The notes: generated by a model not told the origin, from the sequence alone. DNA of 54,347 nucleotides from Sphaeroforma arctica JP610 (GCF_001186125.1 NW_014040523.1:1-54347), one strand, 5' to 3'; shown: positions 10,611 to 44,799, numbered from the stretch's first letter. Translations and numbers: made by a program.

Positions 10611-11410
10611 CTCCAATAGCCTGAGTATTTGGTATGACTCATATACTTGAACCTATTTGAGACGATAGTAGATGTAGGATATTATAGACTAAATCTTATA
10701 ATCTCTGAACTACTACTTACAGGTTTTGGTCTTCCCGCCAATCTCCAAAATCCAATAAGTCTTTTTCTTTTTTAACTTTTCTCCAGATGGAACTTTATTT
10801 ATATTAGCTAATGAATTAACTTGATTTACGTTCTTTGTCTATCTACAGATTAGACATGTGGTCAGGAACACTGTACTTCTAGTGAAAATTATTCAACAAA
10901 GAACACCTACAGGTACGTCCTGTGTGATCGAGGATATTAAGGCTCTTACCAAGAGGCAGTCCCGATTATTCTTACACAAGCTACCACTGCTAAATCCTAA
11001 CTGACTTAAATTGTAACTTAGTTTATAGAACATAGTTCAAAACATAGAAATATCTATCGAAGTTTACAATTGAGTGTCTGGCTTCATCTCCTTTATTTAT
11101 TAAAGGGACTTCTGGTCACACATCAGCGTAAAAGCTGACCCGTATAAGTAATCCGGAAGTGTGTTAAGGCTGCTACTATGGTTAGTAGCTCTTTCTTCAC
11201 TGTTGGATAATTCAACTGCGATGCATTCATTGCTCGGCTAACGAATTGTATATACCTAGGTTTACTATCTATAACCTAGTATAGTACGCTTCCGAGTGCT
11301 AATTCTGATGTGTCCGTTGCTATTTCAAAAGGCACGCCATTGACTGGTCCTAGTACAACAGGGGCTTGTTGGACTGCGCGCTTGAACGCTTTAAGTGTGT
11401 CATCACACTC

Positions 11411-12724
11411 TTAGGTCCATAAGTCTCCTAGTTTACCTTTATGACATCTTAAGTGTCCAAGAGGTTTTAGATAATCAGCTAAGAGTGGTACTCCAAGAGA
11501 GAAGAAGTTTACAAATCCACACATGCTGTTTACATCTCTTCCTGTAGTTGGTGTTCGCCGATCTAACAGGTGTTCCACCTTACCGGGGTCGATCTTATTA
11601 CCTTCCCCAGATATACGATAGCCTAAGAGCTGTATTTCGCTCATTGCGAAGTGACATTTCTTCTCGTTAATCTTGAAGTTTTGCTCGTTGAGTCTCTGAA
11701 TGACTCGTCTGACTAATGCAGCATGTTCACCCTTAGTCTTTGAAAAGTTGACTATGTCATCTATGTAGACTTGCATATTAGGCATGTCTGCAAACATTTC
11801 TTCCATTACTTGTTGGAAGAATGCTGGTAAAGAGTGCAACCCGAAAGGTGCACCTCTAAACCTGTATTGTTTACCCTTCCAAGTAAAAATAAAGTACTTA
11901 CGATGGAGTTTGTAAATTTGCATTTGATGATACCCCTGTGTTAGGTCTATGGTTGTAAACACCGTAGCACCTTCCATTCGTCTCAGTAACTCGTTTATAC
12001 GAAGGAGATGTAAACTATGAGTCGGCAATAATTTATTTATTGGGCTCATATCCAGACATACTCTGACTTTCTTAAATGTTCCGTCAGAGTTGTGTTGATC
12101 AACTGCCAGCAGTGCTAAGTTTACTGGCGTTTGTTGGTAATTGATTTCGATTACCCCATCGGCTAACCATTTCTCCACTTGTTCTTTAACTACAGCCTCA
12201 TGTCTCCAAGAAACATAGTTTCTTGAAGAGCATTTGATCTTAGTGAAATCTACCTTGGTTAAGTCGAGGCTGACGTATCCGTCATTAAAGCGGAATTTCG
12301 CCCAGTCAGTTATCTTTATCTTCTTATTTACTAATATAAGTTCCATTATTATATCGGCAAAGCCAGGAATTAATTCCTTGACTGTGTCCGATAGTGGTGT
12401 ATATGGTTTCAGACAATTATCGTCTGATTGATCCTTTAATGGATCTATGTTGTTGGGAATACCTGTTACGGTTATCCCTAACGTGAGCAAATCGCTCATT
12501 CCAACTATAATGTCGTACTTCTGTGTCATCTTAACGATCACAGCTTGAGTCGTGATATTTATATCATCAGCCAGGGAGATTTTAACATCTGTGGCCATGG
12601 TATCACACTTGGAAGTTTTATCATCTGCTAAAATAAGGTGAGTAGTTTGAGTTGGCCTTTCAATGCCTTTCATTAATGCAAAGCGGTCGGATATACATGA
12701 AATTTCTGAACCAGGATCAATCAA
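11411..12724 (-). CDS. Gypsy A aspartic protease plus reverse transcriptase (pol fragment)
   Basis: 437-codon open frame with DPGS, RVCLD, PFGL and YIDD motifs. Confidence 0.9.
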   Translation of the reverse strand: MIDPGSEISCISDRFALMKGIERPTQTTHLILADDKTSKCDTMATDVKISLADDINITTQAVIVKMTQKYDIIVGMSDLLTLGITVTGIPNNIDPLKDQSDDNCLKPYTPLSDTVKELIPGFADIIMELILVNKKIKITDWAKFRFNDGYVSLDLTKVDFTKIKCSSRNYVSWRHEAVVKEQVEKWLADGVIEINYQQTPVNLALLAVDQHNSDGTFKKVRVCLDMSPINKLLPTHSLHLLRINELLRRMEGATVFTTIDLTQGYHQMQIYKLHRKYFIFTWKGKQYRFRGAPFGLHSLPAFFQQVMEEMFADMPNMQVYIDDIVNFSKTKGEHAALVRRVIQRLNEQNFKINEKKCHFAMSEIQLLGYRISGEGNKIDPGKVEHLLDRRTPTTGRDVNSMCGFVNFFSLGVPLLADYLKPLGHLRCHKGKLGDLWT

Positions 12725-12849
12725 TGCAAGGACTTCATTTCCGTTGCAATATACAGGGATTATTACACACTCATCTAAGGAGTTGTTGTATTTTCTTTGT
12801 AACGATTGTACCTGGTAGTACTTTCACTCCAACTTAATGTCGGGCTTTT

Positions 12850-15770: not shown

Positions 15771-16299
15771 TTTGGTATTTCACGGGGGCCTTTTAATGGC
15801 CTTGTCCAAATTCTGATTATGTAAAATGGAAAAGGTATTTAATTATTGAAACCGTTAAACCCCATTTAAGGAAAACTAAGTTTACGTACTTTTAAGAGTA
15901 CGTTTATATTACAAGATTCTAATGTGGAGGCCCGGCTTCTACAGAAGGGGGAGGCGGTGTTGGTGGTGGTCGACCAGTCGGGCGTTGTGCACGTTGTGTG
16001 CGTAAGTGTGTAGCGATGTTACGGCTAGTGGGTCTAGAGGAAGGAGGGCTGGTGTCGAGCCAGGAGGGAAGGGAGATAAATCAAAGCAGGGCGGATGGCG
16101 GTGGGCAACGATCGGGTGGAGCTCTCCTGAAGGTATATACGATGTTTTGGGGTGGGGGGGGAGCGGGGTTTCGGATGCATAGCCGAGATAGTAGACACGG
16201 TATAGTGTGTTGGTAATGTGTGTATGATTGTTGTCGAAATTGTGTGCTAGGGTCGGGGATGGTGGTGAGTGTGTGAGATGTATGCTTAGAGTGGGCGGG

Positions 16300-17720
16300 T
16301 CGAGGAAGGTTCTTAGTCAAGGTGTCTGCGATGCTATCGGCAGTGTTGACGTATTTGGTTGGCGATGACACCTTGGTCTTGGAGGTCACGAATATGGTGA
16401 ACACGAATGTCGACGTGCTTCAGCTGCTTGGGAGTACCCGAGTTGGTGATGACATGTACGGCGGATTGGTTTTCGCAGTATAGATCAGTGGGAGTGTCGG
16501 GGGTAAAGCCAAGCTCAGTCAAAAAGTTGCGGAGCCACTGTATGTGTTTAGCGGCTTCACTGACAGCAAAGTATTCGGCTTCAGCAGTGCTAGTGCTGAC
16601 ATTCCAGATGACTGTTGTGCCACATATGCGAAAAACGTAGCCGGTAGTGGAGCGACGGGTAGGGAGGCAGCTAGCATAGTCGGAATCAGCGTAGGCGTCA
16701 GTGAAGAGCGGTTGGGGTGTTTTACTGTACGTGAGGCCAAGTGTGGGGTTGGTGCGGAGATAGCGGAGCACGCGACAAGCAGCGAGCCAGTGGTCTTCGC
16801 AAGGGTTGAAAAGGAAACGCAAGAGATTGTTGACGGCGAAGGTGATATCGATGCGCGTGAGTATGGAGAGGTAGAGAAGGGTGCCGACAAGTTCGCGGTA
16901 TGGGCAGTCAAAGGGAGGGCTGTCGTGTTCAATGAGAGGGGTGATCCGGAGGGGGGTGTTGACTGGATGAGTGGAAGCGATGTCAAAGTGTTCGAGAGCC
17001 TCAGTAATGTACGAGGTTTATGCTGGTAGAAGTGGCGTTGGTGATAATGCGACAGCCGAGGAGCCAGGTGGATTCGCCGAGGACGGAGCAATCGAATTCC
17101 GAAAGAAGTTGTGCTTTAAAGCGTTCAACGTCGGCGGGAGTGCAGCCACATATGATAAGGTCGTCGACGTAAATCAGCACGGTGCAGTTGTATGAGGGTG
17201 TGCGGATGGTAAACATACAGCGGTCTGTGTGTGCCTGATGAAAGCCGAATTGAAGGAGCTTAGACTTAATAAGGGAGAACCAAAGCTTCCCAGATTGTTT
17301 GAGACTGTAGAGCGATTTCTTTTGCTCAAGGGTGGTGTCCTTATAAATACCTATTTGATCTGAGCCAGCGGGTGGTTTCATGAAGATGAGATGGTCAAGG
17401 TCAGCGTGAAGGAATGAGGTGTTGACATCCATCTGCTTTGTGTGCCAGCCCTTGTTGGCAGCAACAGCGAGAAGCGTGCGGAGGGATTCATGGGTGCAGG
17501 TAGGTGCATACGTCTCCGTGAAGTTGATATCATTGGTTTGCATGAAGCCACGGGTAACAAGTCGAGCTTTATTTGTCAATAATCCCATTGACCATCTTGA
17601 TTTTGAAACCCTATTTAGAGGTCACAGTTAGGACGTCAGCAGGGAGGTCGGTCGTGTCGCGGAGGATGAAAGTACCAGTTTTGCGAAGGCTGTTCATCTC
17701 AGTCGATGGCAGCTCGCCAG
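16300..17720 (-). pseudogene. Copia A reverse transcriptase plus RNase H
   Basis: ORF pieces 17001-17588 and 16334-16822 with canonical Copia RT and RH motifs; frameshifted. Confidence 0.9.
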
Positions 17721-18469
17721 AGGTCGGCTTCTGGACTGTAGGGGTGATGGGTTGGTCCTGCACAGCTTTGCATAGAGCATGAACGTAAGAGCGAACGGCA
17801 TCGTATTTACGTTGATCCGACAGTTGCTTGCGGGTAAGGCGAGGGCGGTACTTGTCAGGGCCCGGGAGATCAGAGATGTGTGGGGTCTCGTGGGAGTCGT
17901 CGATGAGAAGGTTACGGAGCTCGCGGTTACGGGGACGTTTGGCGATGTGAAGGTGTAGCTGGTCGTTGTGGGAGCCGAGGATACGGTCTTGGTCGTGGCG
18001 AGCAGTAGAGGCTTGGAAGAGTTCGGCCTGTTGCTGAGTTTGGAAGTCAGCGGTACGGGCGCGAGCTTTAAGGGCGTGACGGGCGTCAGAGGATTGGGCG
18101 TGTGGGTGGGCGACACGGTCGTGGGCGGTGCGGAGCAGGGTCTGAAGATTTTTATGGAGAGAGTCAGTTGCTGGGGGGCTGGGGAGGAGTGAGGGTTTGG
18201 GGGAAATACATGGTGTGGATTCAAGTTCAACGACGGAGCACGGAGGAGGGTATGGAGGGTCGGGGACGTCGCATGGTGGGGGTGGAGTATCGATGACGGA
18301 GCAGGGCGGTGGGTCCGGAGAGTCATAGGTCTCGGGCGGTGGCAGGGATGTCAGGGTGGCGGGAGGTTCTATGACGGAAGGCAGGGTATCACGATATGTG
18401 TCGACAACAGAGAGCTGTTCCGGGGTGAGATAGGGCTTCGATTTAAAGCCGACGTTGTGCCACAAGTGA

Positions 18470-19240
18470 AAGATGCTCTCGTTGAATTGAACTTGGCGGG
18501 AAGTCATGGTGTGACCAGTGTCAACGTTGAGCATGCAATATTCGTTGGCGTGCGTGGAGTAGGGGTCACGTGCGATGAGGATGCCAACTCGACATTTGAG
18601 ACGGAGTTTGTCGGTATTGCCGTGGTTATAACTGAGGGTCATGCATCCATATACGCGAAGGGCTTTGACGAAAGCAGTAACGGGGCGATCAGAGAAGGCT
18701 TCGTTGGGATTGGATGTGCGGTGAAAGATGTTGCGGATGTGAGAGGCATGGGATTTGGCTTCGGCCCACATGTGGGAGGGTTGGAGAGCCTGGGCGACCA
18801 TACAAAGTGCAATGTTCATGTTGGTCTGGTGTGCACGTTCGACACCACCGTGTTTGGCGGAGTCGCCAGTGAGGCTGTAGAGGATTTGGACATGGGCAAG
18901 GTGGTTAACGAGTTTGAATTCGGTGGCAACAAGCTCACCTCCACGGTTGGCGATGATGGTGCGTAGGCGATCGTGCCCTTGTGCTTCGATAAAGGTATAA
19001 AAACGGTCGAGGACAAGGTGATCATCGCTTTTGATGCGGGGATGTTCTTGGTACCCGAGGCCTGTACGGCGTCCAAAGAAATGGATGGTGTATGCGTGGC
19101 CACCATATCTCTGTCTTCAAGGTTGACTTGCCATTCAGCGTCAAGAACAGGGAGGGTGCGTGGCTTGTCACTGACTGGGATTTTGTACATTTTTCCAGTG
19201 GCGCAGGAGACGCAGGAACATGCTGGAGACCCCGTGTGGA
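18470..19240 (-). pseudogene. Copia A integrase
   Basis: C..C..GK-like Zn-finger end near 19200, core fragments, and MWAEA...RVYGC...DKL...SRQVQFNE. Confidence 0.75.
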
Positions 19241-19399
19241 GGAGACTGACGTCGATGGCAGTTTGGAGTGCGGCAGGGATGGGTACGGCGTGAGCCGGAG
19301 GACCGAAGATGGCGACACCAGTGTAGAGCCAGTTGGGAGCGGTGACAAAGTCCTGAGTGCCGTCGGGCTGGCGTCGGAGAAATGTATGGGGAGCGGAGG

Positions 19400-19740
19400 G
19401 GGTGATTTAGTTTGGGCCACCAAGCTGCCTTGGGGTTCGAGCTTGGCGGTACCGCGTGGGAAGTCCTTCCAAGGAAGGTTGCCGTAGAGGCGCTTCGTGG
19501 GTTGGCGGTACCGCGTGGGAAGTCCTTCCAAGGAAGGTTGCCGTAGAGGCGCTTCGTGGGTTGGCGCCAGTTCTGTTTGTATGCGTCATGAAGGGAAGTG
19601 GCTTTGCCTTTGTGGTCAATGGTGCAGTAGGTAGGAGCTTGGCGTTTGTGCTTAGTAGCGAACATGTCGATATCAACGGGGCCAAAGACTTGCGTGACGT
19701 GTTTGTCAAATAGTGTGGGGTGAAGCTGGTATTCGTCGCA
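19400..19740 (-). pseudogene. Dam-like DNA N6-adenine methyltransferase domain within Copia A pol
   Basis: DEYQLHPTLFDKHVTQVFGPVDIDMFATKHKRQAPTYCT...DAYKQNW...LYGNLPW (AAC CTT CCT TGG, one substitution from NPPW, 19528-19539), then ...AAWWPKL in a shifted frame. Confidence 0.8.
19443..19566. repeat. Exact 59-bp tandem duplication
   Basis: Units start at 19443 and 19502, with ttggcg repeated again at 19561. Confidence 0.95.
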
Positions 19741-20041
19741 GTAGGTCAGCGGCGGGGGGATGGGGATGTTGTGTGTGTGGGCGATGGCTTTGGTCGTGTG
19801 GATGAACTGGTGGCCAAAGCGGGCGTGGTGGAGGTTGAGACTGTCAGTTTGGAATGTATTCAGGTGGTAGCGCCCGGCAGATTCATCAATGAACTTGACG
19901 GTGGTGCCACCGCGTGTGATAAGGCATTGGGCGAGGCCGTTGGGAGTAGGTGTTTTGGGGGGAAAGATAGTGTAACCGTTGCGTTGCATCTTGCGCACAC
20001 AGAGAATAGGCTGACTGGCGTCGGGGAGGACGAGGGCAGGG

Positions 20042-20366
20042 TGTAGCATCTAGGGACCAGATTGTCAAAAAGCCAATACAAATCCTAAAACTCAGAATCA
20101 TCAAATACTGAGTTTTGGAATTAGGATTGGAATATTTCCGATATTAGAGTCATGAGAAATATTATTGGTAGAACCGGTAAGATATACCGGGACTCCCGCG
20201 TGTGAGAGAAACACTCAAGTAAATCCTGAGTCTAGTGAAAACACAAATAAAGACTCAGTTCGGTTCTCTCCGACTAGGACTTTTCCTAGCTGAGATAAAC
20301 GTACTTGAGAAGAGGTCTATTGTATCCTATTGTCTCATACCTTTCAGATATTCTCCATACTCTACA
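20042..20366 (+). repeat. Gypsy B 5' LTR (325 bp)
   Basis: TG...CA direct repeat of 28347-28671; about 20 mismatches by hand count. Confidence 0.96.
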
Positions 20367-20477
20367 TTTTTTACAATATCCTTACTTAGAATAAGTCAAA
20401 TAACATACACTCGAAAGGAAGAATGAGTGGGAATACAGGGAGTCTTAATCCTTACACATAAGGAGAGACTCCAGATA

Positions 20478-20546
20478 AAGAGGCCCCAACAAGTGAAGAG
20501 GCCCCAACAAGAGAAGGCCCCAACAAGTGAAGAGGCCTTAACAAGC
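20478..20546 (+). repeat. Short ~16-19-bp tandem repeat (GAGGCCCCAACAAG core) in the Gypsy B leader
   Basis: Four units visible, plus a degenerate one at ~20628. Confidence 0.8.
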
Positions 20547-22295
20547 AAACCAGAAGAGAAGCTCGAACCGCAGAAGGAAAGGGCACTGAAGAACTGTGAT
20601 ACCAGGAGGAGCAGTTAGTTGGAAACAGAGGACCCCAACAAGAAGACCGCTACAAGAATTATGACTCGGTATAGAAGAACGAATAAGGCAACAAACTCGT
20701 GCTACAACAGTAGCGTGCTGAAGTGTAAGGTGTTAAATCATTTGTGATGATAATAGTGTGCCATAGAGAGTTTACGAGACTGGCGTAGGGCAAAACCAGT
20801 GAAAATTCAAAAGCTGTCAAGGTGATTGAATAATCAAAGCTAATTATTTTCTAGGATTTTCAGACAAGAAAACACCTTGACAGAAGATTCACAAAAAGGG
20901 CACTACCTAACCTCACTCACTCGAGGCTCCTGGACAAAAGATTAAGAAGCATAGCACGCATTTTCCACCACACCCAACAGACAAGCATCAAGCAAATCAA
21001 TAGATAACTGAAATCTTCAGTATGTACAAAGATTATAAGAAGCAAACACAATACAGGTGGCATAACAAGAAAAAGCAATACAAATGGCATAACATTACAC
21101 AAGAGTTACACATAACGATCATGATCTAAATTCATACAAATCGAAGATCAGAGAGACATCAAATTTCAAATCGAAGAAACATCAAATCATACGCGTAGAC
21201 AGCCATAGTATTATCACACAATATTATGATCTAAAATATTCTAATAACCAGACCAACCAATATTATTGAGCGACAAACAACACACATAATATAATACTAG
21301 TCGCAACACATAAGAAATCAGGATAATACGTAGACACGCGAGGTAAGAAAGAACAGCGCATACTGGCAAGGAACGTTTAGTACCCAAGACAATTGCAAGA
21401 CAACAGTATACAGCTACAGAAAGAAAGCGCAATTTGACAAACACTACAACGAACTCTATAAAAACAAGAAATTGCACAGACACCAACATTTCGAGGTATT
21501 GATCACACAGAGCCCATAAAGGCTCATGCACAACGACACAATTGCAGTAGCACTAGATGAACATACATAAATGTTTATAAAACACATACTCTACGACGCA
21601 GTCGCGCTAGAACATACATAAACATGTATACACAAACATGAACTAAGTGCAAAACTAGGCAATCACGAGAGATCAATAAGGGATCACAGAGGATGTCACA
21701 ATTAAGACAAAAACACAACACATACATGAACCACAAAAGGTAAATAAATGTCAGGCTAGCTAATTAAGCAATATAGAGCCAAAGAGTACATACAACACAA
21801 CCGTCACAAGGGGACACATTATAATAAAACTGTAAATCCACCAGTAGATTCAAGGACACATCTATTGATAAGAGAGGCTATAAGAAACGCTAAGACTAGC
21901 CACTCTGGCACAATTAGTCAAGAAGCATAGATTTTATTACAACAACAAACACTCAGCAATCAGCAATCACATTGAAAAAAGATACAACCCCTATTTCTTT
22001 CATGACTAGCCACTCAGGCAAGCATAGTCAAACATTACCAGAATCACACAACACATGCGATCAGCATCGTCACTGATTCAATACAAAGCACATTGCGAAG
22101 ACAATAAGCGATAACAAGCAATCCTAAGTGAAATCGAGAGACACAAATCAACGAACACAGGACATACACAACACACGCAGGCGTTCATTAGAACAAACAG
22201 TGTGAAGAAATACAAGGACACAAGTAGTCGCATAAATTAAAGGACTCTGACACGATCATAGTGCTAAGGAACGAACATCAAGTGTGGACTAGCGC

Positions 22296-22450
22296 ACACA
22301 TAGTTCGGCACAAAACCCGAACCGACCGGTGACGCCAATAGCGACACACTTCGGTACCGGATACAGTTTGGTACAGGACACACTCCGGTACAAGACGCAG
22401 TTCGGTACAGGACACAGTTCGGTACAGGACACAGTTCGGTACAGGACCAA
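22296..22450 (+). repeat. 17-bp tandem repeat (CGGTACAGGACACAGTT) in the Gypsy B leader
   Basis: About six units at 22345-22450 and degenerate ones upstream. Confidence 0.85.
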
Positions 22451-22459
22451 ACTGCTAGA

Positions 22460-22840
22460 GTGACGTCACTAGGACCGAACATCTCACTGAGAACACACAT
22501 GAGGAATTATTTTCTCATATGACGGAATAAGTATAAGTGACGTCACATATGACAAATAAGCTTTACTAACAGGCACCATTTTCAAACCCTATAAATATAG
22601 GGGACGAAGCAACAAGCTACCGGGCCATACAGCACGGTAAACACTTCCAGCGGAAGTGCAGCAAAGTAACGACACTAAAATAGTAAGTAAAACAAATCAA
22701 AGTTTTATTTTATATATAAAAATTATTACTAAAGACGGGGGGGGGGGGGGGGGTGAAGCGCGCGCTTTCGCACAAAATATAACCAGAGTCTTTATTAATA
22801 ATTCACTAACACCCACACACCACGCAGACAACTGAAAATG
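22460..22840 (+). promoter_or_regulatory. Putative internal promoter and 5'-UTR intron upstream of Gypsy B gag
   Basis: Two GTGACGTCAC (CRE) palindromes at 22460 and 22537; TATAAATA at 22590; GTAAGT at 22683; branch point CACTAAC at 22804; acceptor CGCAG ending 22827; ATG at 22838. Confidence 0.55.
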
Positions 22841-24255
22841 CCAACAGCAACCAGAACAAGCGTGTACGGTGGGAGGAAATGTAGTGAAGGCGCGGGTGAC
22901 GTGGGAGTTAGCCCAATGGGGGAAGCAAGCCCAGGCAGTAGCTCGGGCCAGCCTACTCCGGCGGGGGTACCCATCTTAGCCTCAGCAGTCTAGAAATATA
23001 CAAGAGTATCTGTCAAGGCAATCATGTCTTTGTGAGTCGGTTTGTGTCCAAGTTGGAGCAGACAGCACCTGTGCCCATACCAACTCTGCACATGGTGAGG
23101 GTAGGCATATATTATCAACAGCCAGAGCGCTGTATGCCACTAGTGGATGCGAAGCTCAGACGACGATATGACCAAGCGATCAACGATTGTGTTGATGATG
23201 AGGAAGACAAACTCATCCAGATCAGTCTGTACATCAGTGAGCTATAGCTCATGCGTTCACGTTTAGGCGATCAGTTAAACGAACCATCTCTTAAGAAATT
23301 GTTTAAGACTTCTGAATTTCCTAAGATGCTTAAGGTAAATTTATTTAGAATGGAAACTGTGAAGATATCATAGAGTTCAGTACACAGTGTAGTGATCTGT
23401 TCTTAGCTAAGTCAATGCCTCTGTGTCAGTACCCAGCACTAGTGCGAAGCCTTTTGGATTCCACTGAAGCAACGGAGAAGACCAAATCAGTACTCAACAA
23501 TATGAGAGATTCTGAGACACACACATCCAGGCACTTCACCGATCCGGAGCAGTTCAATAGAATCATTATTGACCGACAGTAGACTATCTATTGGAGAAGT
23601 TTCTCAATGACATGCAGAATAAGAAGATGAACGTCGAAGTGTGCACAGAGCGTGTGCACAAGACAAGGCGATGTTGGAAGAGCGTTACCGCATCTCAGAC
23701 AAGCAACCCATATACTTACAAATCCTCAAAGTACAAAGGTACCTAGCACTTAAGTACTATGTATTGCAATCAGTTGTGGATACTCTCATTAAGGGAGACA
23801 GGCAACCGGGTGGGAGTGAAGGACACTTGTCCAACATGGACCACGCCAAGCTTCATACTATGACTGAGACACACATAAGAACAGTGGCTGTGACACAAGC
23901 AGAGCGTATATTGAGGGATCAGGTGCGAACAGCAAACAAGCGCAATAACGCACAGACGAACACGCAGGTTGAGGATAACTCTACGAATGCTAACAAATGG
24001 CACAAGCCAGACAATGGTACATACAACCATAACAAGCAAGGAGGGCATACACAGAAGAAGAAGGGGGCACGTGAAGAGTGTGCATGCCCCTACTGCTTGG
24101 CAATGCCATCCCCACATCGATTCAGTGAATGTCCCAACAAGAAAGCAAATCAAGCCAAGAAGGCTGAGGAGCAAGCCAAGAAAGATGTGAAGATAGCAAG
24201 ACTGTCCATTACGTCTGGCAATGTGGAAGACATCACCGAAGGTGATGAGCACTGA
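22838..24255 (+). pseudogene. Gypsy B gag
   Basis: Broken reading frames ending in ORF 23641-24255, which has a CX2CX6HX4C knuckle, upstream of the protease. Confidence 0.7.
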
Positions 24256-24389
24256 AAGCACTGGTGGGCGGATGCAAACACGATTGACCTGGCTGACAGA
24301 CTCAATGTATTTACAGATGAAGAAACGTTGTTAGTAAATGCAAATGATATAAATTACCAACCTTTATCTTTACTTCCCGCACCACGAGA

Positions 24390-26100
24390 CTAACGTTTAC
24401 ACATTGACATACAAATTAATGGTAATACATACAATGCACTAGTAGACTCGGGTGCACAACGCTCATGCATGGACAAAAGTGTAGTATCATAATTATATCT
24501 TTCTGTTAGAGCGCAACCGGGGTACATACAACTAGCACAAACAGATGCACGAATACAACGCACGGGATCAACAGAAGTTTGTGACATTAAATATGGAGGT
24601 AGAAAAACCTCTGTGGTTTGAAGTATTGGACTTACCTGAAAAGAAGACACCAATACTTATAGGTATGTACATCCTAGCATGCATAGGTATATACATAGCA
24701 GGATAAATCAATCCACAAATACCAACAGATGTAAAATGGGAATCGCTTTCACAGCACATGAAGAGGTCCCAGGGCATGAACAAGAAGGTCTCAGGTAGTC
24801 ACTTACAGACCTCCTGATATTCATTGCAACCTACCAGGCTCCATAGTCACAGTACCTGCAAATAAAATCAACGTCAGGCAAATGAGGCATGCTAAAAAAT
24901 ACATTCCGCAAACGGATGAGAATGTGCAACGATGACTTAAAGATGGCCACATATATATACGTGATAAGTCCACAACGGTAAACTTGCCGTTGTTATCAAC
25001 AGGTGAACATGACCAAACAGGTCTACTCAAGAAAGTCAAGACATGTCTAGACTTACGTGAGACCAATTATCAATATGAACAGGACAAGTCTGTGTTACCA
25101 AAGATAAAGGAAGTGATACACATCCTACAAGGAGCACAGTTCTTTTCAAAGCCAGATTTTACAGGAGGATTTCATCACTTTCTAGTAGATGAAGCAAGCC
25201 AACACTTCTTCACATTCTCGTGGAGAGGAGCGCAAAACTCATTCAAGTTCTCGCCGTTTGGACTACACTCACTCAAAGCACAATTCCAGAGAGTCATGGC
25301 TGCTCATAGATATCAAAGGAGTGCAAGTGTATGTAGATGACATAGTCATTGCGAGTCTTACAGAAGAAGAACACCGCAAGACAGTTCGTGAAGTAATCAA
25401 GCGACTGAATAGTGCAAACTTCCGACTCAATCACAAGAAGTGTGCCATTGCGGTCAAAGTGGACAACATTCTTGGGGTGAAAGTCGCCACACAGGGACTC
25501 AAAACAGACTCCGAGAAACATAAAGAATGATGGATTGGCCACTACCCAGAACAAAAGAGATCTGTACAAAGTAGTTGGACTAGCAAATTACATGCGAGAC
25601 CATGTCCCCAACTTTGCTCACACCACGAAACACTTTCGGAACCTAATGAAAAGTAAAATGAACCAGAATATATACATGTTATGGACTCCGGAACTAATCA
25701 GGAAGTGGGAAGAACTCAAAGAAGCAATCGCATGTTCAGCGACGCTAGCATATCCTCTTGATGGGGTACCGTTTCAAATTATGAACGATGATAGTGACTA
25801 TGGCATAGAAGGGTGTTTATTTCAAGTCATCGATAGAGTTAGAAGAGACATTCTCTACTTCTCAAAAAGCTTGAATCCAGCACAACAACGCTATGGCACA
25901 AATACCAAAGAGCTACTAGCGCTGGTATACAGCCTGTAACATTTCTCCGAATACATCAAAGGGGGGGACATAACACTGTGGACAGATCACAAGAGTCAAG
26001 AGACGTTACACCCAATGCTAGCCAAGTGGACAGCAAAAACGTTCCACCACCGCAAGGACAACCAGATGGCAGATATGTTGTCACGTCTCCATGAAGATAC
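24390..26100 (+). pseudogene. Gypsy B protease-RT-RNase H
   Basis: ALVDSGA, KTCLDLR, DFTGGFHH, SPFGL, YVDDI, DDSDYG, KELLALV, WTDHK, NQMADMLSR; many frameshifts. Confidence 0.92.
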
Positions 26101-26209
26101 TTTTAGTACTAAAGAGTCAAAGGTATTAAAACAGGCAAATGAGGCAACACATAATAGCCAAGAGTACACCACCTTGGAAACGAACATGCCCATAACCATA
26201 TCGGCCATA

Positions 26210-26606
26210 GACTGGATGTTACATTCCAGATTCTATCAAGAAGTGGAACGAAGGTTTGAGAAGTTCACAGTAGTCTGTTTGCATCGGCACACAATGCGCA
26301 CACAGATAAACACTACACCAAAGAACAGAATGCGCTACAACAAAAGTGGGCGCAGGAAGTCAATGCATGGGCGAATCCACCATGGGAACTCATACCTGAT
26401 GTCCTTGACAAAGTCATTGCAGAGGCAACCAGCATCACGATATGTGTACCATATTACCCCAATGCCTCGTGGTTTCCAAAGTTCTTGACTTTACTAGAAG
26501 AAGACCCGATGTCAGTGGAAAACACAAGCAATACGTTTTTCAGAGAGGGCAAGAGGGCTTGCGGCAAGACCCCATGGGGTGTCACGTTAGTCACAAAGAT
26601 AGGAGC
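26210..26606 (+). pseudogene. Dam-like DNA N6-adenine methyltransferase domain of Gypsy B pol
   Basis: DWMLHSRFYQEVERRF.../LFASAHNAH...NALQQKW...NAWANPPWELIPDVLDKV...ICVPYYPNASWFPKF...GKTPWGVTLVTKIG. NPPW at 26374-26385; one frameshift before LFAS. Confidence 0.87.
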
Positions 26607-26729
26607 TAAGTCTCCATACTTTGACTCAACGCGGGAACAACCTGCTATACACGTTGCAGCGTCAGAACCAGTTCACTCTGGAGAAACACCACAGGCAACA
26701 GAATATGAGACACATGTCAACATCATTTA

Positions 26730-28032
26730 GCAATACCACAACTTGGGACACTGCACTCCTGAGGAAACAGTACACAAGTTGCAAACAGATGGACATGATT
26801 GGGATGATATCCAACAACATGTACACAAGTTCATTGACGGATGTATACCATGTCTCAAAAATAAAATACACAAAAAGGGATTTCACCCCTTACAATCAAT
26901 TACAGCCGCATATCCAAGCGACAGAGTCCAAATGGACACCATAGGGCCACTATTGGATTCCAATAGAGGACACACATACGTGTTAGTATACCTTGACGTA
27001 TATTCATCGTACGCCATTTTACGTCCAATGATGGACAAATCAGCGGCTACCATAGCACACACACTGGTACCAATTATATGTGAACATGGATTCCCACAAA
27101 TCATACAACCGGACCAAGGCACTGAATATGTTAACAACATACTATCAAAAGTTGTTGAACAAGCGCCAATGTAACACCTAGACCTCATGTCACTGCTACA
27201 GAAATTCGTTGAACAGAATCCAGGTAACTGGTGTTCAAGACTTTCATTCGTACAGATGGGCCATAATCTGCGTACATCTAGACGACACAAGTCACCGGGC
27301 TCTAATGTGTACTTTGGTCGCAGACAGAATCAACTCACGGACTACAATGAGCCAGTGGCCGCACCCAGTACAACAGTATCTTAGGAAGAGCGACTGCAAA
27401 ATCTAGAAGAAGCCATCAGGCCACAACTAGAGAGCAATGTTGCACAGTATCAAGAGAAGAGGCGAGCAGCATTCGATCGAAAATACCAACAGAAGTATGT
27501 AAACTTCCATGAAGGGGAGCTTGTCTTGGTCCGCTATTAAGGTGAAATGAACAAGTTAACAGCACCAAATGGTAGACCATACAAAATAGTATGCAGGGAG
27601 GGCAACGGGTATATTGTCTGTAACCTTGATGGGACAAAAGCCTCAGAATATCCTGACTCGATCAGTGATGAGCTACTTGGCTTCGTGAAAAGGGCCAGTG
27701 CTCTGGAAGCATTTGCTTCCAACAATCACGTACAACCAAACGAAGAGACTCAGTTCTCATCGATAGTCGACGACAGGCCGTCCATCCGAGGTGATGGATC
27801 CCAGGAGTACCTACTGCAATGGACAGATGGTGAGCGTACCTGGACGCATGAATCAGACATCGCAGATGCTGATGTCATTACAACATACCGTCAACGCCGG
27901 AGACGTAAAAGAAGGCCGTCAAGGCCAAAGAAGCCAGCGACAACGAGCACTGGTAAAAGATCAGACAGACAGCGCACGAGACCTAAGCAAGTTTCACTGA
28001 TACCACAGGACACTCCCACTTTTCTCGCCTAG
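26730..28032 (+). pseudogene. Gypsy B integrase plus chromodomain
   Basis: HNLGH...CIPC, RVQMDTIGP, DQGTEY, GRPYKI (GPY/F-like), IVDDR...EYLLQWTDGERTWTHESDI. Confidence 0.92.
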
Positions 28033-28346
28033 AAGCATGCTCCCCCCACACACCAGATGGACAAGGACCAGAGACTCGGTTGCAGAGCCACCGCTGAGAT
28101 GCATTTTCTTAAGCCAAGTTGGGATCAACCGAGAGCACCGGTCAAGACTGACTCCGATGATCGTTGTAGAGGACTCCTGCTATAGTATAAATTTAATTAA
28201 TCGGTAATATATAATAGATTACGGTGTCAGGTTTTTCATCTTATGCCCCCTAAGGGACAAGATAAACACCAACCTCTAGACAATCTAGTACTGTTAGATG
28301 TCACTTTATACTCCTACGCAGGCTAAGAAGCATAAAGTTGGGGGGC

Positions 28347-28671
28347 TGTAACATCTAGGGACCAGAGTATCAAAAAGCCAATACAAATCCCAGAACCCAG
28401 AATCATCAAATACTGAGTTTTGGAATTAGGATTGTAATATTTCTGTTATTAGAGTCATCAGAAATATTATTGGTAGAACCGGTAATATATACCGGGACTC
28501 CCGCGAGTGAGAGAAACACTCAAGTAAATCCTGAGTCTAGTGAAAACACAAATAAAGACTCAGTTCGGTTCTCTCCGACTAGAACTTTTCCTAGATGAGA
28601 TAACCGTACTTGAGAAGAGGGATATTGTATCCTATTGTCTCGTACCTTTCAGCTACTCTCCATACTCTACA
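28347..28671 (+). repeat. Gypsy B 3' LTR (325 bp)
   Basis: Direct repeat of 20042-20366, preceded by a PPT. Confidence 0.96.
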
Positions 28672-28675
28672 AGGG

Positions 28676-30976
28676 CCGAGACCGGGGATGGTGTCACGGG
28701 TTGGCGCGGTGACGAAGAAACCGCCGGCGAGTTCAATAACGAATTGACCATGTTCTACGTTCAGCGGAGGTGACGATGGAAATTCTGCGCCGGAGTCGAT
28801 AAGATCAGTGGCGATGACGGATTGGTGGTAGGGTTCGGCACGGAATATATGGGTGTTCACATGGTAGCGCACTGGTTTGATGATGGGATCAGTTGGTGGG
28901 GGAACTGGTGGTGGAGGTGTGGCTGCGTGAGGAACCCCGTGGCTTCAGGCACGGCGACAGGCGGTGGTAGTGTGGCCTGTGGAATTGCGGCAGTTGTTGC
29001 ACTTGAGGGGACGAGGAAAAGTGCATTGCGAACCGGTGTGGGAAGAATCCCAGCAGCGGCGACGATTGCTGGAAGGGCAGTCATAGGCACCGTGAAGAGG
29101 CACTGTCGACGCTATAGGTGTTGCTGATACTTAGAATGGCTTTGCTATTGGTGGCGTAGTTGCGCATTTTAGTAACGATGGTGTCAAGGGTGTACGTGTG
29201 ATCAGTTGCGCCCATAATGTCCTGGGCGACGATGTCAAAATCGTCCGGGAGAGATTGCAGGAGGCTGCAGACGTGATAAAATTCGGGTGTGTCAGCATGA
29301 AGGCTTTTGAGTTGATCGCGAAGGAGGTTGACTTTGGCAATGCTGTCGTCCAGGGAGAGTTACTTGGGGAGGGTGACGAGATGAACGAGAAGTTCCCATA
29401 TGCGGCCGATGGTGATGGAGTTGAAATCGTCACAAAGGTGGCGATAGAATGCGTGGGGGTCTTGGTCTAGGTAAGTGTCGTATTGTTCTGGGAGGCCGCT
29501 GCCGATGGATTCAAATAAGATGGTGGTGCCGACGGTCTTTCGGATGCGTCAGCGGTGGAGGCAGGGTGCAGGGTGTGAAGGACGTCATGTTTCTTAAGGA
29601 TGTGCTTGAGTTGACAATGCCAGTTGGTAAAATTGTCGTATCTAGTAAGCTTCGTGGCAGGATAGTTACTGGAATACCTGCGGGGTTTACCGGTGCTGAT
29701 GCGGCTGACAGGGATGTTGGGCATCTGATGGGAGTCGTGGCGGGGGGCACCAAGGAGTGGAGAGTCCGAGCGAGATCGGGATGGGGTGAACATGGGGGTA
29801 GATGGGGACCGTTGTTCAAGCTTACGAATCTTGCTTTGGGCTACCTCTAGCTGTTAACAGAGGCTGTGGGAATCAGAGGCAGCGAGTTCTGCCTGAAGGG
29901 TAGTGAGTTCGTCATGGAGCTGTGTGGCGGCAGTGGTGAGGTCCTCGTTTTCGGTGAGGGCCTCTTGTAGAAGTTGTGCATGTTCGTGTTGTTGTTGGGT
30001 GAGGTGAGCGCGGTGTGTGTCGCGGTCATTGCGCAAGCGATTGATGTCGGCTTCAGCAAGGGCGTGAGTCTTACGGAGAGCGGCGTGGGTAGCTTCAAGG
30101 TGAGTGTCGGGGATGTAGTGGAGTGTTCCTGTGCTTGAATGAGTACAAAGCGGGCCTCTTCACGTTCTTCAAAGTATGTGTCACGTTCACGACGGATGTG
30201 GGCGAGGTCGTTTTGCAATGTGGTGTGTTCGGTGGTTGTTGTGATATTGATGTCTTGCATACGTGTAAGATTGCGATGAATATTATCACGTTCAATGGTG
30301 ATGTCGGTGTAACTAGATTGCGCCTGATTACGTTCAGTGATGAGGGTAGCGCGTTCGGAGCGAATGTGATCAAGTTCAGTGGCGAGCTGGTCGCGTTCAG
30401 TGATGAGTGTGCTACGTTCGTTACGGATGCGCTCAAGGTCATTAACTAGAGAGTTATGTTTGATGGTGTGTTGGTCGTAGTCAGATTGAGTTAAATCGCG
30501 GGCGGTATTGGCGGTGATACGTTCAGTGAGGATGGTGTGGCACTCTTGACGAAGGCGTGCAATGTCGACGTTGAGATCAGCAATGGAATCAGATTGTTTG
30601 GCAGATACATTGCGGATGGTGTCGAATTCAGTGGAAAGGTTGGCACGGTCGCGTCGAATGCGAGTGAGGTCGGATTGTGCGTCAGTGTTGGCCTTGTGTG
30701 AGCGGTTTCAATCAGTGATAGCGGATATTGCATCGAGTTCGGAAAACACAGCGTGAGCATCTAAGTATATGGCGGTGTTGTTGGCGGTGTTGTTGACGTG
30801 AGAGTTATCGTTGGTGTCAACAACAGCAGATATGATGGTGCGGGTAAGTTGGATGTGATTATTGGCGTGGGAAATATTGGTGCATGGCTGGAGAGTTGGG
30901 AAGAAGTCACGTTGAAAACGTTGGGCGCCCTCAAAGCTAAATCGGGATTTGGCCCGTGGGCGGAGGTTGACGCATG
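28676..30976 (-). pseudogene. Copia A gag-protease with a long N-terminal coiled-coil extension
   Basis: Heptad-like ER/RDE repeats at 29850-30760, a gag N-terminal motif, a degenerate knuckle (R)RRCWDSSHTGSQC, and IDSGA. The protease rejoins across Gypsy B as TIPGLGP|ALVLPDASQPILCVRKM. Confidence 0.8.
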
Positions 30977-31183
30977 GTGATGTATGAGATGGAACTAGAG
31001 GAGCAGCGGTGGTGCAGAGGTGGTGAGATCAGAGGATCGGCAGAGTTGGTGAGCTCAGAATATCAGAGGTGGTGAGATTAGAAGATCAGAGGTGATGAGA
31101 TCGGAGAGATATTGTGATCAAGAGATCAGGGGTGGAACTCTAAGCGATGTATATATGGAATATAAATAATTATATTCGATATA

Positions 31184-31194
31184 GGCCCATAACC
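31184..31194 (-). promoter_or_regulatory. Copia primer-binding site GGTTATGGGCC (half-tRNAiMet type)
   Basis: Immediately follows the LTR end ...CCAACA (31195); matches the Drosophila copia-type PBS, which is complementary to an internal tRNAiMet segment. Confidence 0.85.
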
Positions 31195-31311
31195 TGTTGG
31201 AACATATATTTGCTTAACGAAGTAACTTTATTATCATATTACATATTGGCTATAAANNNNNNNNNNNNNNNNNNNNGTTAAGCTAATACCCGGGACACTC
31301 AGGGTTAGTAT

Positions 31312-33109: not shown

Positions 33110-34638
33110 ACATTTCCATAAGATATTGTATCATACACTCCTTAGCAACCGTCACGCGCGCATGCAGAAGAGACGCAGCCCCGGCTTGACACACCATCGA
33201 CTCAGGCTGTCGACTCTCACGTGTTTGAATCCGCTTCCGATATACTGGAACCATATTCGGATCGTCGAAAGTATGTGCTGTCACCAATGTTTGAGAGCCT
33301 CTCAACCAGCGTACCAAGTAGTGGTTTTGTAGTTTTGGTCGTCGCCCCCTGTGCGAGTATCGTCACTATGCCACCCGTCTTAAATTCGATCAAATCAAAC
33401 TTACACAGGTCAGTAGCCTCCGCCATAGCAGCAGTATACTGTATCGTTTCTGATGAAGTTTCAGCTAATCTATTAAATTCATCCAACCGCTTTAACCATA
33501 CATCATTCGTCATATGAACATGACCAGGTAAGTCATTAGGTTATGTTAGCGAACGGTATAACATGGCGGGAATCAAAATAAACACTGATTGGTGCCGACT
33601 TGTGAAGACATGATATCCAAAGGTTCTGGTAAAGCATAGTAAACGGTAGACGATCATCTCACAGTTCCGGGCAGCCAACACATAGTGCGCGCGCACATTT
33701 GTGAATTTCTTTGTGCCGTCGCTACGCCGCACCCAAGGTCTGAGGACGTCTTGTGTATAATTCCGAGTGCCCCGTGTAATAGCCTTCACGATATTATTCA
33801 CAAATTCAGTACCCTCATCACTCTGAATCTTAGAGGAAACCCATGCTCACCAAACACCGATACTAATTATGTCGTCACCGTTTTTGCATCCTTCGCAGGT
33901 ATCGTCCAAAGTATAGAGTACCCCGACGCTACATCCAATATATGTAAAATAAACTTGTTGCCCTTAGTAGATGTGACCACCATGGTAATGAGATTCATTT
34001 GTATGTAATACCAAATAATTGTACTGTGATGTACTACTCATTAAAGAGTGGAAGCCCTTCTTCATGGTGTCATTGCCTAAGCATGTACGACATGCTTTAC
34101 GGACCTTTTCCGTAATCGGAACCATCTAGTCCCAATTATGTCCGTCATCCTTCACCTGTTGTACAGTAACCGCCGGTGAAGGGTGCTCTTGTTTATGAAA
34201 TTGCCACGCCAACTGCACCCAATTACCGTAGCCCGCGCACATACCTCAGGGACTTGTTCAGAGATCTGTCGCATCACCGGTTGTGCCCAATTCTCTGGAT
34301 AACGCGTACTAGCCTCCTCACATACAGGTATCTCTAACCTCAAATTGCACCAAAACGATGAATTGACCTTGTAGCCCGAGTGAGGCCCAATCCGGACAAC
34401 AATAGTATGCTCCCACGGGTACTTACCACAGGCCTGTGTGCCATATTTGTGCCGTGCGTGGAATCAGTAGCGGGTCCGTCTGCATCATCGATAAGCGCAA
34501 TGGAAACGACAGCGCACGTGTGTTCAACGGCGAAAACATTATGGCAGACGTATTGTCTGTCAACACCTTGCGTAGTACCTTATATATAAGGCGCCTTGGT
34601 GGATTCATCCATGCATAGTATTTACTCCAATCAAATTC
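33110..34638 (-). mobile_element. Gypsy element D remnant (MTase C-half plus integrase)
   Basis: HKQEH..VKDDGHNWD...CRTC...KKGFHSL...KIQSDEGTEFVNNI, homologous to the Gypsy B integrase. Confidence 0.82.
34380..34638 (-). pseudogene. Dam-like adenine methyltransferase domain (C-terminal half) of Gypsy D
   Basis: FDWSKYYAWMNPPRRLIYKVLRKV...SAIMFSP...DPLLI/..ACGKYPWEHTIVVRIGP. NPP(R) at 34594-34605 (AGG, one change from TGG). Confidence 0.8.
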
Positions 34639-34639
34639 A

Positions 34640-35810
34640 ATTTCTCGTCCGCGACGCCGAACGTGAGGAACGCATGCAAGCTATGATTAGCCTCCGTGAT
34701 CAAGAACAGGCAGAGAAAGACAAAGCCCACGCATCCGAGATCCAAGGTTTGAAGATTAGCCTTCTATCCATGAACGAACAGTTCAACGTCAAGAAGGTCA
34801 AGACCTTAGAAAATACTGAGGCTATCCTTCGTGTCCTCACGACACCTCTTCCCAAGCTCATCAAGGAGAAACTGAAACAAGATAAATTTGTAAAACTGTC
34901 CGCAATCAAAAGTGCAACGCGCCCCACACGAGAGAACACCACCGAACTTAAAATAGTAGACGTGATCGCAAAAGTAAAAATCAGTCAAGGAATCTTTTAC
35001 GTCTTTTGCCGACTTCCTCGACACATGGATAACACTTTTGGCATCCATGCTTTACTTCAACGAAGAGCTGAAATCCGACATGCCAGCCGTACTCGATCTA
35101 CTCAGTTACACCAAATTGCTCACCGGGTACCTCATGAACTACACCCTAACTGCCGTCGAGACTCTTGACTACCTTCACCGCGAGGGACTTGAGAAGTACG
35201 AGAAAGACACTCGCTTGGCGACTATCGACACCAACAAACTCTGTACTTTCTTGACAACACTGAACAACAGACGAACGAACACGTTCGGTAGCAAGTGTCG
35301 AGTTTGTAAGATTTTCTGCACCTGCGAAGTCAACGAGACGACCACCAGAGCACCCAAAGCCACTACCCTACGTCTAGCAACAGGAACCAACGATGCACTA
35401 CATTCAATCGTCACGGATAAAATTCTTGTAAAGAAGACAAGTGCAAATTCAAGCACGAATACAACAAGCCGAAATGCAAGTCACGCGCTACGTATGGAGG
35501 CTGTGAACATGATCCCAGCAAGCACGAATGGGATTCAAATATTATCCCTATATTCTTTTCTCCGTAAGGCGGTACGTCCAGACACCGTTCCAAACTTACA
35601 GAAGCTAACGAACGCATTTCAGGGATACAATAAAGAATTAAAAAGAATACTCTACTACACATGATCAAGTTTGATGCTGACATTGGTTACAAAGGCAGTC
35701 GTGCGAGTAAAACAATATACCGCAATCATCCACCAGCATTCGATAATGTACCGGGACTCTCTAGAACCATCACACAGGACGCTCTCAAAGGGACAATCAT
35801 AGACCCTTGT
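34640..35810 (+). mobile_element. DIRS-order (Ngaro/PAT-like) retrotransposon remnant: gag plus RT N-terminus
   Basis: IKEKLKQDKFVKLS, FLDTWI, C..FN...C...CKFKH Zn-finger-like sequence, then DIGYKG...RNHPPA...ITQDALKGTIIDP. These resemble DIRS/Ngaro gag and the GF.IGY.G...NH.SA RT leader. No RT core or recombinase is seen. Confidence 0.6.
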
Positions 35811-41779: not shown

Positions 41780-42374
41780 TGTAAACTTCGATGGATATTT
41801 CTATGTTTTAAACTATGTTATATAAGCTAAGATATAATTTAAGTCAGTTAGGATTTAGCAGTGGTAGATTGTGTAAGAATGATCGGGACTGCCTGTTGGT
41901 AAGAGCCTTAATTTCTTCGATCACACAGGACGTACCTCTAGCTGTTCTTTATTGAATGATTTCAATAGAAGTACTAAGTGTTCATGACCACATGTCAATT
42001 TGTAGATCGACATAAGAACGTAAGTCAAGTTAATACATTAGCTAATATAAATAAAGTTCCATCTGAAGAAAAGTTAAAAAAGAAAAAGACATTGGATTTT
42101 GGAGATTGGCGGGAAGACCCAAACCTGTAAGTAGCAGTTCAGAGATTATAAAATTTAGTTTATAATATCCTACATCTACTATCGTCTCAAATAGGTCCAA
42201 GTAAATGAGTCATACCAAATACTCAGGCTATTGGAGCCATCAAAGTAAATTTAGAACACTTTGGAAATATCGGAAAAAGAACTTGTATTAAATTATTTTA
42301 AATACAAATAAAAACCAATGTGTTATCTCATTTGGTCTTGATATTTTAGACTGACCGGAGGCCGTATTTCTACA
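41780..42374 (-). repeat. Gypsy C 3' LTR (595 bp)
   Basis: Minus-strand TGTAGAAAT...GTTTACA; matches 48784-48943 and the solo LTR at 7172-11068. Confidence 0.93.
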
Positions 42375-42512
42375 TAGCCCCCAGTAGCTTTTAGGACTAC
42401 GGACGTACGTGAAGGTACGATCTAGTTCGTAAAGCGAAAACCAAAGTAAAACGGTTTCGGTCATAGCTTATCGAGTAAGTATGTGCCTTTATGCACAAGT
42501 TCAAGACTCATG

Positions 42513-44269: not shown

Positions 44270-44384
44270 TACCTCGACTGTATTTCATGTTGGGTGCATG
44301 TGTTGTACGAGTCTTGAGCTTTTGTTCAAACTCCTTAGGCTCCTCTAGTTTAGGTATAAACTCGGTTGAGGGTTTCTAATTAAT

Positions 44385-44775: not shown

Positions 44776-44799
44776 CTAATAACTCTCTAACTGTTTTCT

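What the first reader, a model, noticed from the sequence alone, without database searches (positions are those of the whole stretch)
26015..26760. Gypsy chromovirus with a Dam-like adenine methyltransferase between RNase H and integrase
Seen: in the LTR- and TSD-bounded element B, the RNase H end (NQMADMLSR) is followed by DWML...LFASAHN...AWANPPW...VP...WFP...KTPW and then the HHCC integrase. Known: (N/D)PP(Y/W/F) is motif IV of amino-methyltransferases, and the DW.L/DLFA/NPP layout after RNase H is the phage-Dam-like MT domain of DIRS retrotransposons. Cytosine MTases have been reported in some eukaryotic retroelements, but I do not know an adenine MTase as a standard Gypsy pol domain. Inference: a Gypsy lineage that writes 6mA (or 4mC) on its own cDNA or target, perhaps mimicking a host mark or evading silencing. 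This copy is frameshifted.
Basis: partly seen in the sequence, partly recalled or inferred. Interest (0 to 1): 0.9.

Follow-up and report, generated by a model that had tools for sequence, protein, structure and literature searches.

The report
Gypsy retrotransposon with adenine-methyltransferase domain
A broken copy of a Gypsy-type jumping gene, likely from a Sphaeroforma-like protist, carries an adenine-methyltransferase domain between RNase H and integrase that likely marks the element's own replication intermediates; this design was described in a 2026 preprint, and the main addition here is a faint chromodomain that the preprint reported as absent in this lineage.

Summary
Confirmed but largely known. 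Window 20042-28671 is a decayed Ty3/Gypsy element (325-bp LTRs, 4-bp TSD) inserted in a Copia element. Between RNase H and integrase lies a Pfam Dam domain (36.8 bits, cut-off 28.1) with NPPW intact. Unbroken 1288-aa relatives have the same order. The RT tree joins it with an Abeoforma element (100/98), and the top named hits are Sphaeroforma arctica. This is the ichthyosporean DAM-LTR lineage of bioRxiv 10.64898/2026.05.21.726589. The scan found this architecture before on other DNA. Additions here: (1) a cage-less C-terminal chromodomain, also in Abeoforma, though the preprint says the lineage lacks one; (2) purifying selection on Dam between two neighbouring elements (pN/pS 0.27); (3) the fold is closest to predicted phage Dam models and, among solved structures, to PCIF1; (4) one Copia polyprotein with Dam. 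Activity is unshown: the preprint's E. coli assay was negative. Best guess: RT-tethered N6-adenine methylation of single-stranded or hybrid replication intermediates (0.45).

The parts
20038..20041 (.). 5' target-site duplication AGGG (4 bp)
   Evidence: the host Copia reading frame matches on both sides with a 4-bp duplication
20042..20366 (+). 5' LTR, 325 bp, TG..CA
20372..20383 (+). PBS-like leader without TGG, complementary to LTR positions about 272-283 (possible self-priming site or U5-leader stem)
   Evidence: 12-bp duplex, -15.2 kcal/mol with the 3' LTR copy, 0 of 1000 shuffles as strong; an exact 10-mer complement arises in 176 of 20000 shuffles; not significant with the 5' LTR copy, 109 of 1000
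23623..24255 (+). gag remnant with a CX2CX6HX4C knuckle-like motif near 24088-24132
   Evidence: sequence; no Pfam hit
24316..24748 (+). aspartic protease (DSG), broken
   Evidence: tblastn to P0003; protease Pfam hits on P0002/P0003
24897..25530 (+). reverse transcriptase (YVDD), frameshifted
   Evidence: RVT_1 E 1.4e-9
25682..26086 (+). Gypsy-type RNase H ending in ADMLSR
   Evidence: RT_RNaseH_2 E 1.1e-17
26207..26604 (+). Dam-like amino-methyltransferase domain (DW, xLFA..N, NPPW 26374-26385, TPW); frameshift at about 26273
26731..27590 (+). integrase: HHCC, D-D core with the catalytic Glu region deleted, GPY/F-like motif near 27571-27582
   Evidence: rve E 1.4e-10, Integrase_H2C2 E 9.6e-5
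27748..27900 (+). diverged chromodomain lacking the first and third cage aromatics (type II-like)
   Evidence: Pfam Chromo E 0.0047, below cut-off; 28 of 28 PDB hits at E<=10 are chromodomain proteins; custom HMM 15.0 bits against a maximum of 1.6 in 480 shuffles
28334..28345 (+). polypurine tract
28347..28671 (+). 3' LTR
28672..28675 (.). 3' target-site duplication AGGG

Best explanation
This is a dead copy of a Ty3/Gypsy DAM-LTR retrotransposon whose Pol carries a conserved Dam-like methyltransferase domain after RNase H, which in intact copies likely methylates adenine N6 on the element's own single-stranded or RNA:DNA replication intermediates inside the particle. Shown: the architecture, the fold model, retained motifs, purifying selection and the lineage. 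Inferred: (a) the domain stays with RT-RNase H after polyprotein cleavage, because it ends the RT-RH ORF in DIRS and the RH-Dam linker is conserved while the Dam-INT linker is not; (b) it binds SAM and methylates with little sequence specificity, being a bare ~135-aa core with no recognition domain; (c) after integration the host AMT1 system would maintain the mark and keep new copies transcribable, which is the preprint's model; (d) the cage-less chromodomain would steer integration by something other than H3K9me reading.
For: NPP[W/F/Y] is kept in 31 of 33 Gypsy/Copia-linked Dam rows. The D-x-F-A..N motif is conserved across a 97-row alignment (D 73, F 79, N 72 rows). The Dam domain is under purifying selection between window elements C and D: pN/pS 0.27 (bootstrap 0.19-0.36, 126 codons) against 0.36 for RT (251 codons), with synonymous sites saturated. 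P0002 vs P0004 identity: Dam 59%, RT 58%, RH-Dam linker 50%, Dam-INT linker 27%. In DIRS loci L002-L006 Dam follows RNase H directly, and in the four whose frame reaches a stop it ends the ORF. The model of a 77%-identical S. arctica homolog has pLDDT 91.6. It matches predicted phage N6-adenine DNA methyltransferases (E 7e-9, TM 0.73). In the PDB it matches PCIF1/CAPAM best (Foldseek E 1.2e-4; VIA Z 9.3, rmsd 2.8, 117 aligned; EcoDam Z 6.5, T4Dam Z 6.4). PCIF1 methylates ssRNA > hybrid > ssDNA > dsDNA without sequence preference (PMC9178792). The preprint reports more 6mA and higher expression on DAM-LTRs in S. arctica and A. whisleri.
Against: No activity has been shown for any retroelement Dam. 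The preprint's expression in dam- E. coli gave no 6mA increase. Iyer et al. judged DIRS1 MTase domains 'likely inactive' (PMC4738411 passage). The PCIF1 top rank in the PDB is weak support for single-strand preference, because predicted phage Dam models score far better. The 6mA enrichment could follow from higher transcription alone. Selection was measured on elements C and D, not B. Earlier scan notes report conserved DAM-LTR domains that lost the catalytic motif (unchecked), which fits a non-catalytic role. GATC counts and ApT ratios in B show no signature (24 GATC against 30 expected).
Confidence: 0.45

Rival explanations
1. The domain is a non-catalytic or weakly catalytic nucleic-acid or SAM-binding module that helps RT/RNase H or packaging; 6mA on these elements is written by host AMT1 because they are transcribed.
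For: Negative E. coli assay; Iyer et al.'s inactivity claim for DIRS1; P0187 (NIPF) and P0191 (HPPW) have altered motif IV in long ORFs; earlier notes on motif-less DAM-LTRs.
Against: In one search every row of the ichthyosporean Dam clade that was printed keeps NPPW or NPPF, and the domain is constrained as strongly as RT. That is hard to explain without catalysis or SAM binding.
Confidence: 0.25
2. It is an RNA adenine methyltransferase (PCIF1-like) acting on the genomic RNA or its capped 5' end, affecting stability, packaging or priming.
For: PCIF1 is the best solved-structure match and the only one at Z>=8; Iyer et al. place DIRS1 MTases in the PCIF1 clade; the element may self-prime from its own RNA.
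Against: PCIF1 cap recognition uses a helical domain (PMC8287941 passage) that this domain lacks. Phage DNA Dam models match better than viral PCIF1 homologs (E 7e-9 against 1.6e-4).
Confidence: 0.17
3. It is a motif-specific dsDNA methyltransferase, like phage Dam, acting on finished cDNA or target DNA (6mA, less likely 4mC) together with integrase.
For: Pfam Dam and PHROG 111 membership; best structural matches are phage DNA MTase models; it lies next to integrase.
Against: No 6mA gain on E. coli dsDNA; there is no target-recognition domain; the DIRS ancestors have no integrase.
Confidence: 0.13

Closest known systems
Ichthyosporean DAM-LTR lineage (Fernandez-Moreno et al., bioRxiv 10.64898/2026.05.21.726589; whole main text read, supplements not seen)
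   Same: Ty3/Gypsy pol with a DIRS-derived PF05869 Dam domain and an NPP triplet. Top named hits are S. arctica (P0001 83%, P0108 77%). The RT and Dam trees join Abeoforma whisleri elements (P0116, P0117).
   Different: The preprint says this lineage lacks chromodomains; a diverged one is detected here in B, its relatives and Abeoforma P0116. The 4-bp TSD, the possible self-priming site and the PCIF1 fold match are not in its main text (0 occurrences of PCIF1, CAPAM, copia, priming).
Chlorophyta DAM-chromovirus-like clade (same preprint)
   Same: Gypsy with Dam and a chromodomain.
   Different: Described from green algae with a Pfam-detectable chromodomain. Here the chromodomain is sub-threshold and cage-less, and the named relatives are ichthyosporean.
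DIRS1-type tyrosine-recombinase retrotransposons (MT domain)
   Same: Same Dam-like domain directly after RNase H (L002-L006).
   Different: B has TG..CA direct LTRs, a TSD, a protease and a DDE integrase; its RT falls among Gypsy elements, not DIRS.
Phage Dam family PF05869 / PHROG 111
   Same: Sequence profile and predicted fold (TM 0.73).
   Different: A bare core embedded in a polyprotein; no dsDNA activity found for eukaryotic members in E. coli (preprint).
PCIF1/CAPAM cap-specific m6Am methyltransferase
   Same: Closest solved fold (Z 9.3, rmsd 2.8, 117 aligned); NPP-aromatic motif.
   Different: No WW or helical domain; 13-17% identity; substrate untested.

Membership tests
Ty3/Gypsy LTR retrotransposons | Direct LTRs TG..CA, TSD, polypurine tract | tested here: met
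Ty3/Gypsy LTR retrotransposons | Pol order PR-RT-RH-INT with HHCC and DDE integrase | tested here: met
   D-D(35)-E counted by hand in P0002; the Glu is deleted in this copy
Ty3/Gypsy LTR retrotransposons | RT-RH groups with Gypsy rather than DIRS or Copia | tested here: met
   Best PDB hit of P0002 is Ty3-G Pol, E 1.8e-65; tree rooted on DIRS; RVT_1, not RVT_2
DAM-LTR retrotransposons (2026 preprint) | PF05869 Dam domain (E<=1e-5) in an integrase-type LTR pol | tested here: met
   E 4e-9 in the window, 4.4e-15 in P0002
DAM-LTR retrotransposons (2026 preprint) | Asn-Pro-Pro catalytic triplet followed by an aromatic residue | tested here: met
   NPPW at 26374-26385
DAM-LTR retrotransposons (2026 preprint) | Elevated 6mA and expression; AMT1 in the host | not testable with these tools
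   no genome held; no base-modification data
Ichthyosporean DAM-LTR lineage | Clade with Sphaeroforma/Abeoforma/Pirum elements | tested here: met
   RT-RH clade of 14 rows including Abeoforma P0116, 100/98; Dam tree support only 0.79-0.91, FastTree; no Pirum sequence was identified
Ichthyosporean DAM-LTR lineage | No Pfam Chromo hit at the preprint's threshold (E<=1e-5) | tested here: met
   best E 0.0042; 6 of 12 members hit only weakly
Ichthyosporean DAM-LTR lineage | Truly lacks a chromodomain (the preprint's wording) | tested here: not met
   Sensitive tests find one in B (15.0 bits) and in the lineage's own Abeoforma member P0116 (20.6 bits). The wording appears to be a threshold effect, so I file B under DAM-LTR and place it in this lineage by phylogeny only.
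Chromoviruses | Chromodomain at the integrase C-terminus | tested here: met
   type II-like, no full aromatic cage (types as defined in PMC6317226 passage)
Chromoviruses | RT-RH inside the chromovirus branch | tested here: inconclusive
   Sister to 8 rows that mostly carry chromodomains (98/100); joined to Tf2/sushi-like chromoviruses at only 84/91; no curated reference set; rows were chosen from an earlier tree
Tf1/sushi self-priming group | PBS complementary to the LTR/transcript 5' end instead of a tRNA | tested here: inconclusive
   12-bp match to the 3' LTR copy only; transcript start unknown; single element
Active N6-adenine methyltransferases | SAM-dependent methyl transfer to adenine N6 | not testable with these tools
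   needs biochemistry; the preprint's E. coli test was negative
DIRS1 retrotransposons | Tyrosine recombinase and inverted/split repeats, no DDE integrase | tested here: not met
   DDE integrase and direct LTRs

The most novel reading that the evidence does not exclude
Ichthyosporean DAM-LTRs are cryptic chromoviruses whose RT-tethered minimal methyltransferase pre-marks single-stranded cDNA or RNA:DNA hybrid with 6mA inside the particle, so that new copies land already carrying the host's active mark; the same module has also been captured by Copia elements.
Probability: 0.3. Interest if true: 0.75.

Novelty: new member of a known kind. Interest (0 to 1): 0.33.

Why it matters
If active, the domain is a way for a transposon to write its host's 'active chromatin' mark on itself, and what retroelement Dam domains methylate is an open question. 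The architecture itself has been in print since May 2026, very likely for this lineage. What this locus adds is a correction (a hidden chromodomain), selection evidence, unbroken natural relatives to assay, a reason to test single-stranded and hybrid substrates, and a lead to a Copia capture.

Tried and rejected
No host genome was held, so copy counting and dN/dS across intact B copies were not possible. The first fold (P0001, 12-row alignment) was poor, pLDDT 48.6, and was not searched. A profile search of the Dam alignment against PDB sequences found no methyltransferase (3 weak hits, best E 0.043). The metagenome scan gave 6 loci: one B-family fragment ending before Dam and five DIRS elements. 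No RNA holder was listed; the X19 'RNA?' label is a guess and was not used as expression evidence. P0131 and P0133 looked like Dam repeats by stretch count but are unrelated repeats. A nested DIRS insertion was rejected because relatives are in one frame. A 5-bp TSD was rejected because the flanks and the Copia frame fit 4 bp. No chromodomain was detected in P0115, P0123, P0125, P0134, P0223 or window element D, and only 0.4 bits in element C. GATC, ApT and CpG counts were uninformative. A search of earlier findings by sequence found nothing. No second Copia-type RT was found among the 148 newly listed representative hits. No complex prediction was run.

Full report
Observation. The downstream frame scores above the Pfam Dam cut-off (36.8 against 28.1 bits, E 4e-9) and hits PHROG 111. 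The element spans 20042-28671 with 325-bp LTRs (20 mismatches, K2P 0.064), a 4-bp TSD and a purine tract. It sits in a minus-strand Copia element (RVT_2 E 5e-42) whose frame matches across a 4-bp duplication. This copy is dead: 6 frame changes, 9 stops in aligned segments, and loss of the integrase Glu region.

The domain is a real part of Pol. P0002 and P0003 (1288 aa) and P0004 (995 aa) carry RT-RH-Dam-INT in one frame, the first two with the protease. A phmmer scan found 477 relatives at E<=0.001 and listed 150. I scanned 25 of them plus P0007 with Pfam. Of the 14 hits of 1200 aa or more besides P0003, 11 have Dam after RNase H in a Gypsy-type pol, 2 have it before RT, and 1 is a Copia polyprotein. 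In four public runs, 1296, 99, 436 and 402 contigs were laid on this region, and 13, 2, 8 and 8 contigs do not share the break at about 26273. The family is therefore multi-copy and the break is not family-wide. Three more Dam-bearing remnants lie in the window.

Lineage. Named hits are Sphaeroforma arctica (P0001 83%, P0108 77%, P0005 76%) and Abeoforma whisleri (P0116, P0117), so the host is likely a Sphaeroforma-like ichthyosporean (inference). An IQ-TREE RT-RH tree of 45 rows, chosen from a 121-row FastTree, puts B, C, D and P0116 in one clade (100/98). That clade is sister to 8 rows, 7 with Pfam chromodomains and 4 with Dam (98/100). The join to Tf2/sushi-like chromoviruses is unstarred (84/91). 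Because rows were picked from the earlier tree, the group support is partly circular.

Selection and motifs. Between elements C and D, Dam has pN/pS 0.27 (0.19-0.36) and RT 0.36 (0.29-0.43), with synonymous sites saturated. In the B family Dam is as conserved as RT (59% against 58%), while the Dam-integrase linker is 27%. NPP plus an aromatic is kept in 31 of 33 Gypsy/Copia-linked rows.

Fold. A model of P0108 built on a 97-row alignment has pLDDT 91.6; it lacks the N-terminal DW helix. Predicted phage N6-adenine DNA methyltransferases match best (E 7e-9, TM 0.73). Among solved structures PCIF1/CAPAM ranks first in both searches (Foldseek E 1.2e-4; VIA Z 9.3, rmsd 2.8, 117 aligned), ahead of KsgA (7.0), EcoDam (6.5) and T4Dam (6.4). 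This agrees with Iyer et al., who group DIRS1 MTases with PCIF1 but call them likely inactive (PMC4738411, three passages). PCIF1 methylates ssRNA > hybrid > ssDNA > dsDNA (PMC9178792, abstract and first part of Results). A shared fold does not show the substrate.

Chromodomain. Pfam Chromo is sub-threshold (E 0.0047), but all 28 PDB hits at E<=10 for 27724-27909 are chromodomain proteins. An HMM built from 22 retroelement chromodomains outside this clade scores B 15.0 bits, P0004 25.8, P0120 23.7 and Abeoforma P0116 20.6, against a maximum of 1.6 in 480 shuffles. P0115, P0123 and element D scored nothing, and C only 0.4. Against the canonical rows in that alignment, B lacks the first and third aromatic positions (identity of the cage positions recalled from HP1). 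This matches the type II definition (PMC6317226 passage).

What is known. The preprint 10.64898/2026.05.21.726589 (whole main text read) reports the first DAM domains in non-DIRS LTR elements and five lineages. One is an ichthyosporean lineage (Pirum, Abeoforma, S. arctica) said to lack chromodomains. It finds more 6mA and expression on DAM-LTRs, finds no activity in E. coli, and proposes methylation of RNA-DNA intermediates maintained by AMT1. Its supplements were not seen and may bear on the chromodomain and Copia points. My searches listed no other paper describing a Dam domain in Gypsy or Copia, an ichthyosporean chromodomain, or PCIF1 with DIRS beyond Iyer et al. Most listed papers were judged from the listing only; PMC4007536 and PMC12477816 from passages. 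The library lacks most subscription journals. The scan's earlier notes hold 23 findings with these words in at least 3 genomes.

Mechanism. My best reading (0.45) is an RT-tethered, low-specificity N6-adenine methyltransferase acting on single-stranded or hybrid intermediates in the particle, with host maintenance after integration. Architecture, motifs, constraint and fold are shown; cleavage pattern, catalysis, substrate and benefit are inferred. The rivals are a non-catalytic module (0.25), an RNA writer (0.17) and a dsDNA motif methylase (0.13).

Verdict. The feature is real, a member of a kind described in 2026 and very likely of a lineage named there. The additions are modest. Interest 0.33.

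Noticed in passing
P0223 (one search hit; one 6857-bp contig): A 2098-aa Ty1/Copia polyprotein (gag, CCHC knuckle, Dam 619-684 with NPPW, protease barrel, integrase, RVT_2) in one frame. The preprint's main text never mentions Copia and its RT tree used RVT_1. It is a single sequence, so a chimera is not excluded.
   Followed up: partly
P0125, P0134: Gypsy-like pols with an exonuclease/endonuclease/phosphatase domain and Dam in front of RT (EEP-Dam-RT-RH-INT); P0125's cluster has 5 members.
   Followed up: partly
window 26278-26592 (in public runs): A contig joint goes back 315 bases (105 codons) across the Dam core at depth 4401 and 2824, against about 30-80 for most contigs. This hints at a high-copy tandem derivative of the Dam core. 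A variant of similar depth changes the second Pro of NPPW (phasing not shown).
   Followed up: partly
window 6560-7168 with 11156-12823 (-); 42500-48943 (-); 33235-34656 (-): Three more Dam-bearing Gypsy remnants (D, C, E); C and D form a separate family close to P0123.
   Followed up: partly
window 7172-11068; 41780-48943: A solo LTR of family C (split by later insertions, including an RVT_1 ORF at 8024-10681) sits inside element D. Both it and element C have 4-bp TSDs, as B does, whereas Capsaspora chromoviruses make 5-bp TSDs.
   Followed up: partly
window 20372-20383 / 28618-28629: No tRNA-type PBS; the leader pairs with the LTR itself, a possible self-priming site.
   Followed up: partly
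window 20367-22900: An unusually long, A-rich (AT skew about +0.35) leader with 17-bp tandem repeats near 22343-22447.
   Followed up: no
window 16000-20037 and 28676-31200 (-): Host Copia element with strong GC skew and a coiled-coil gag region.
   Followed up: no
window 1058-2221 (-): 387-codon open frame with no Pfam match.
   Followed up: no
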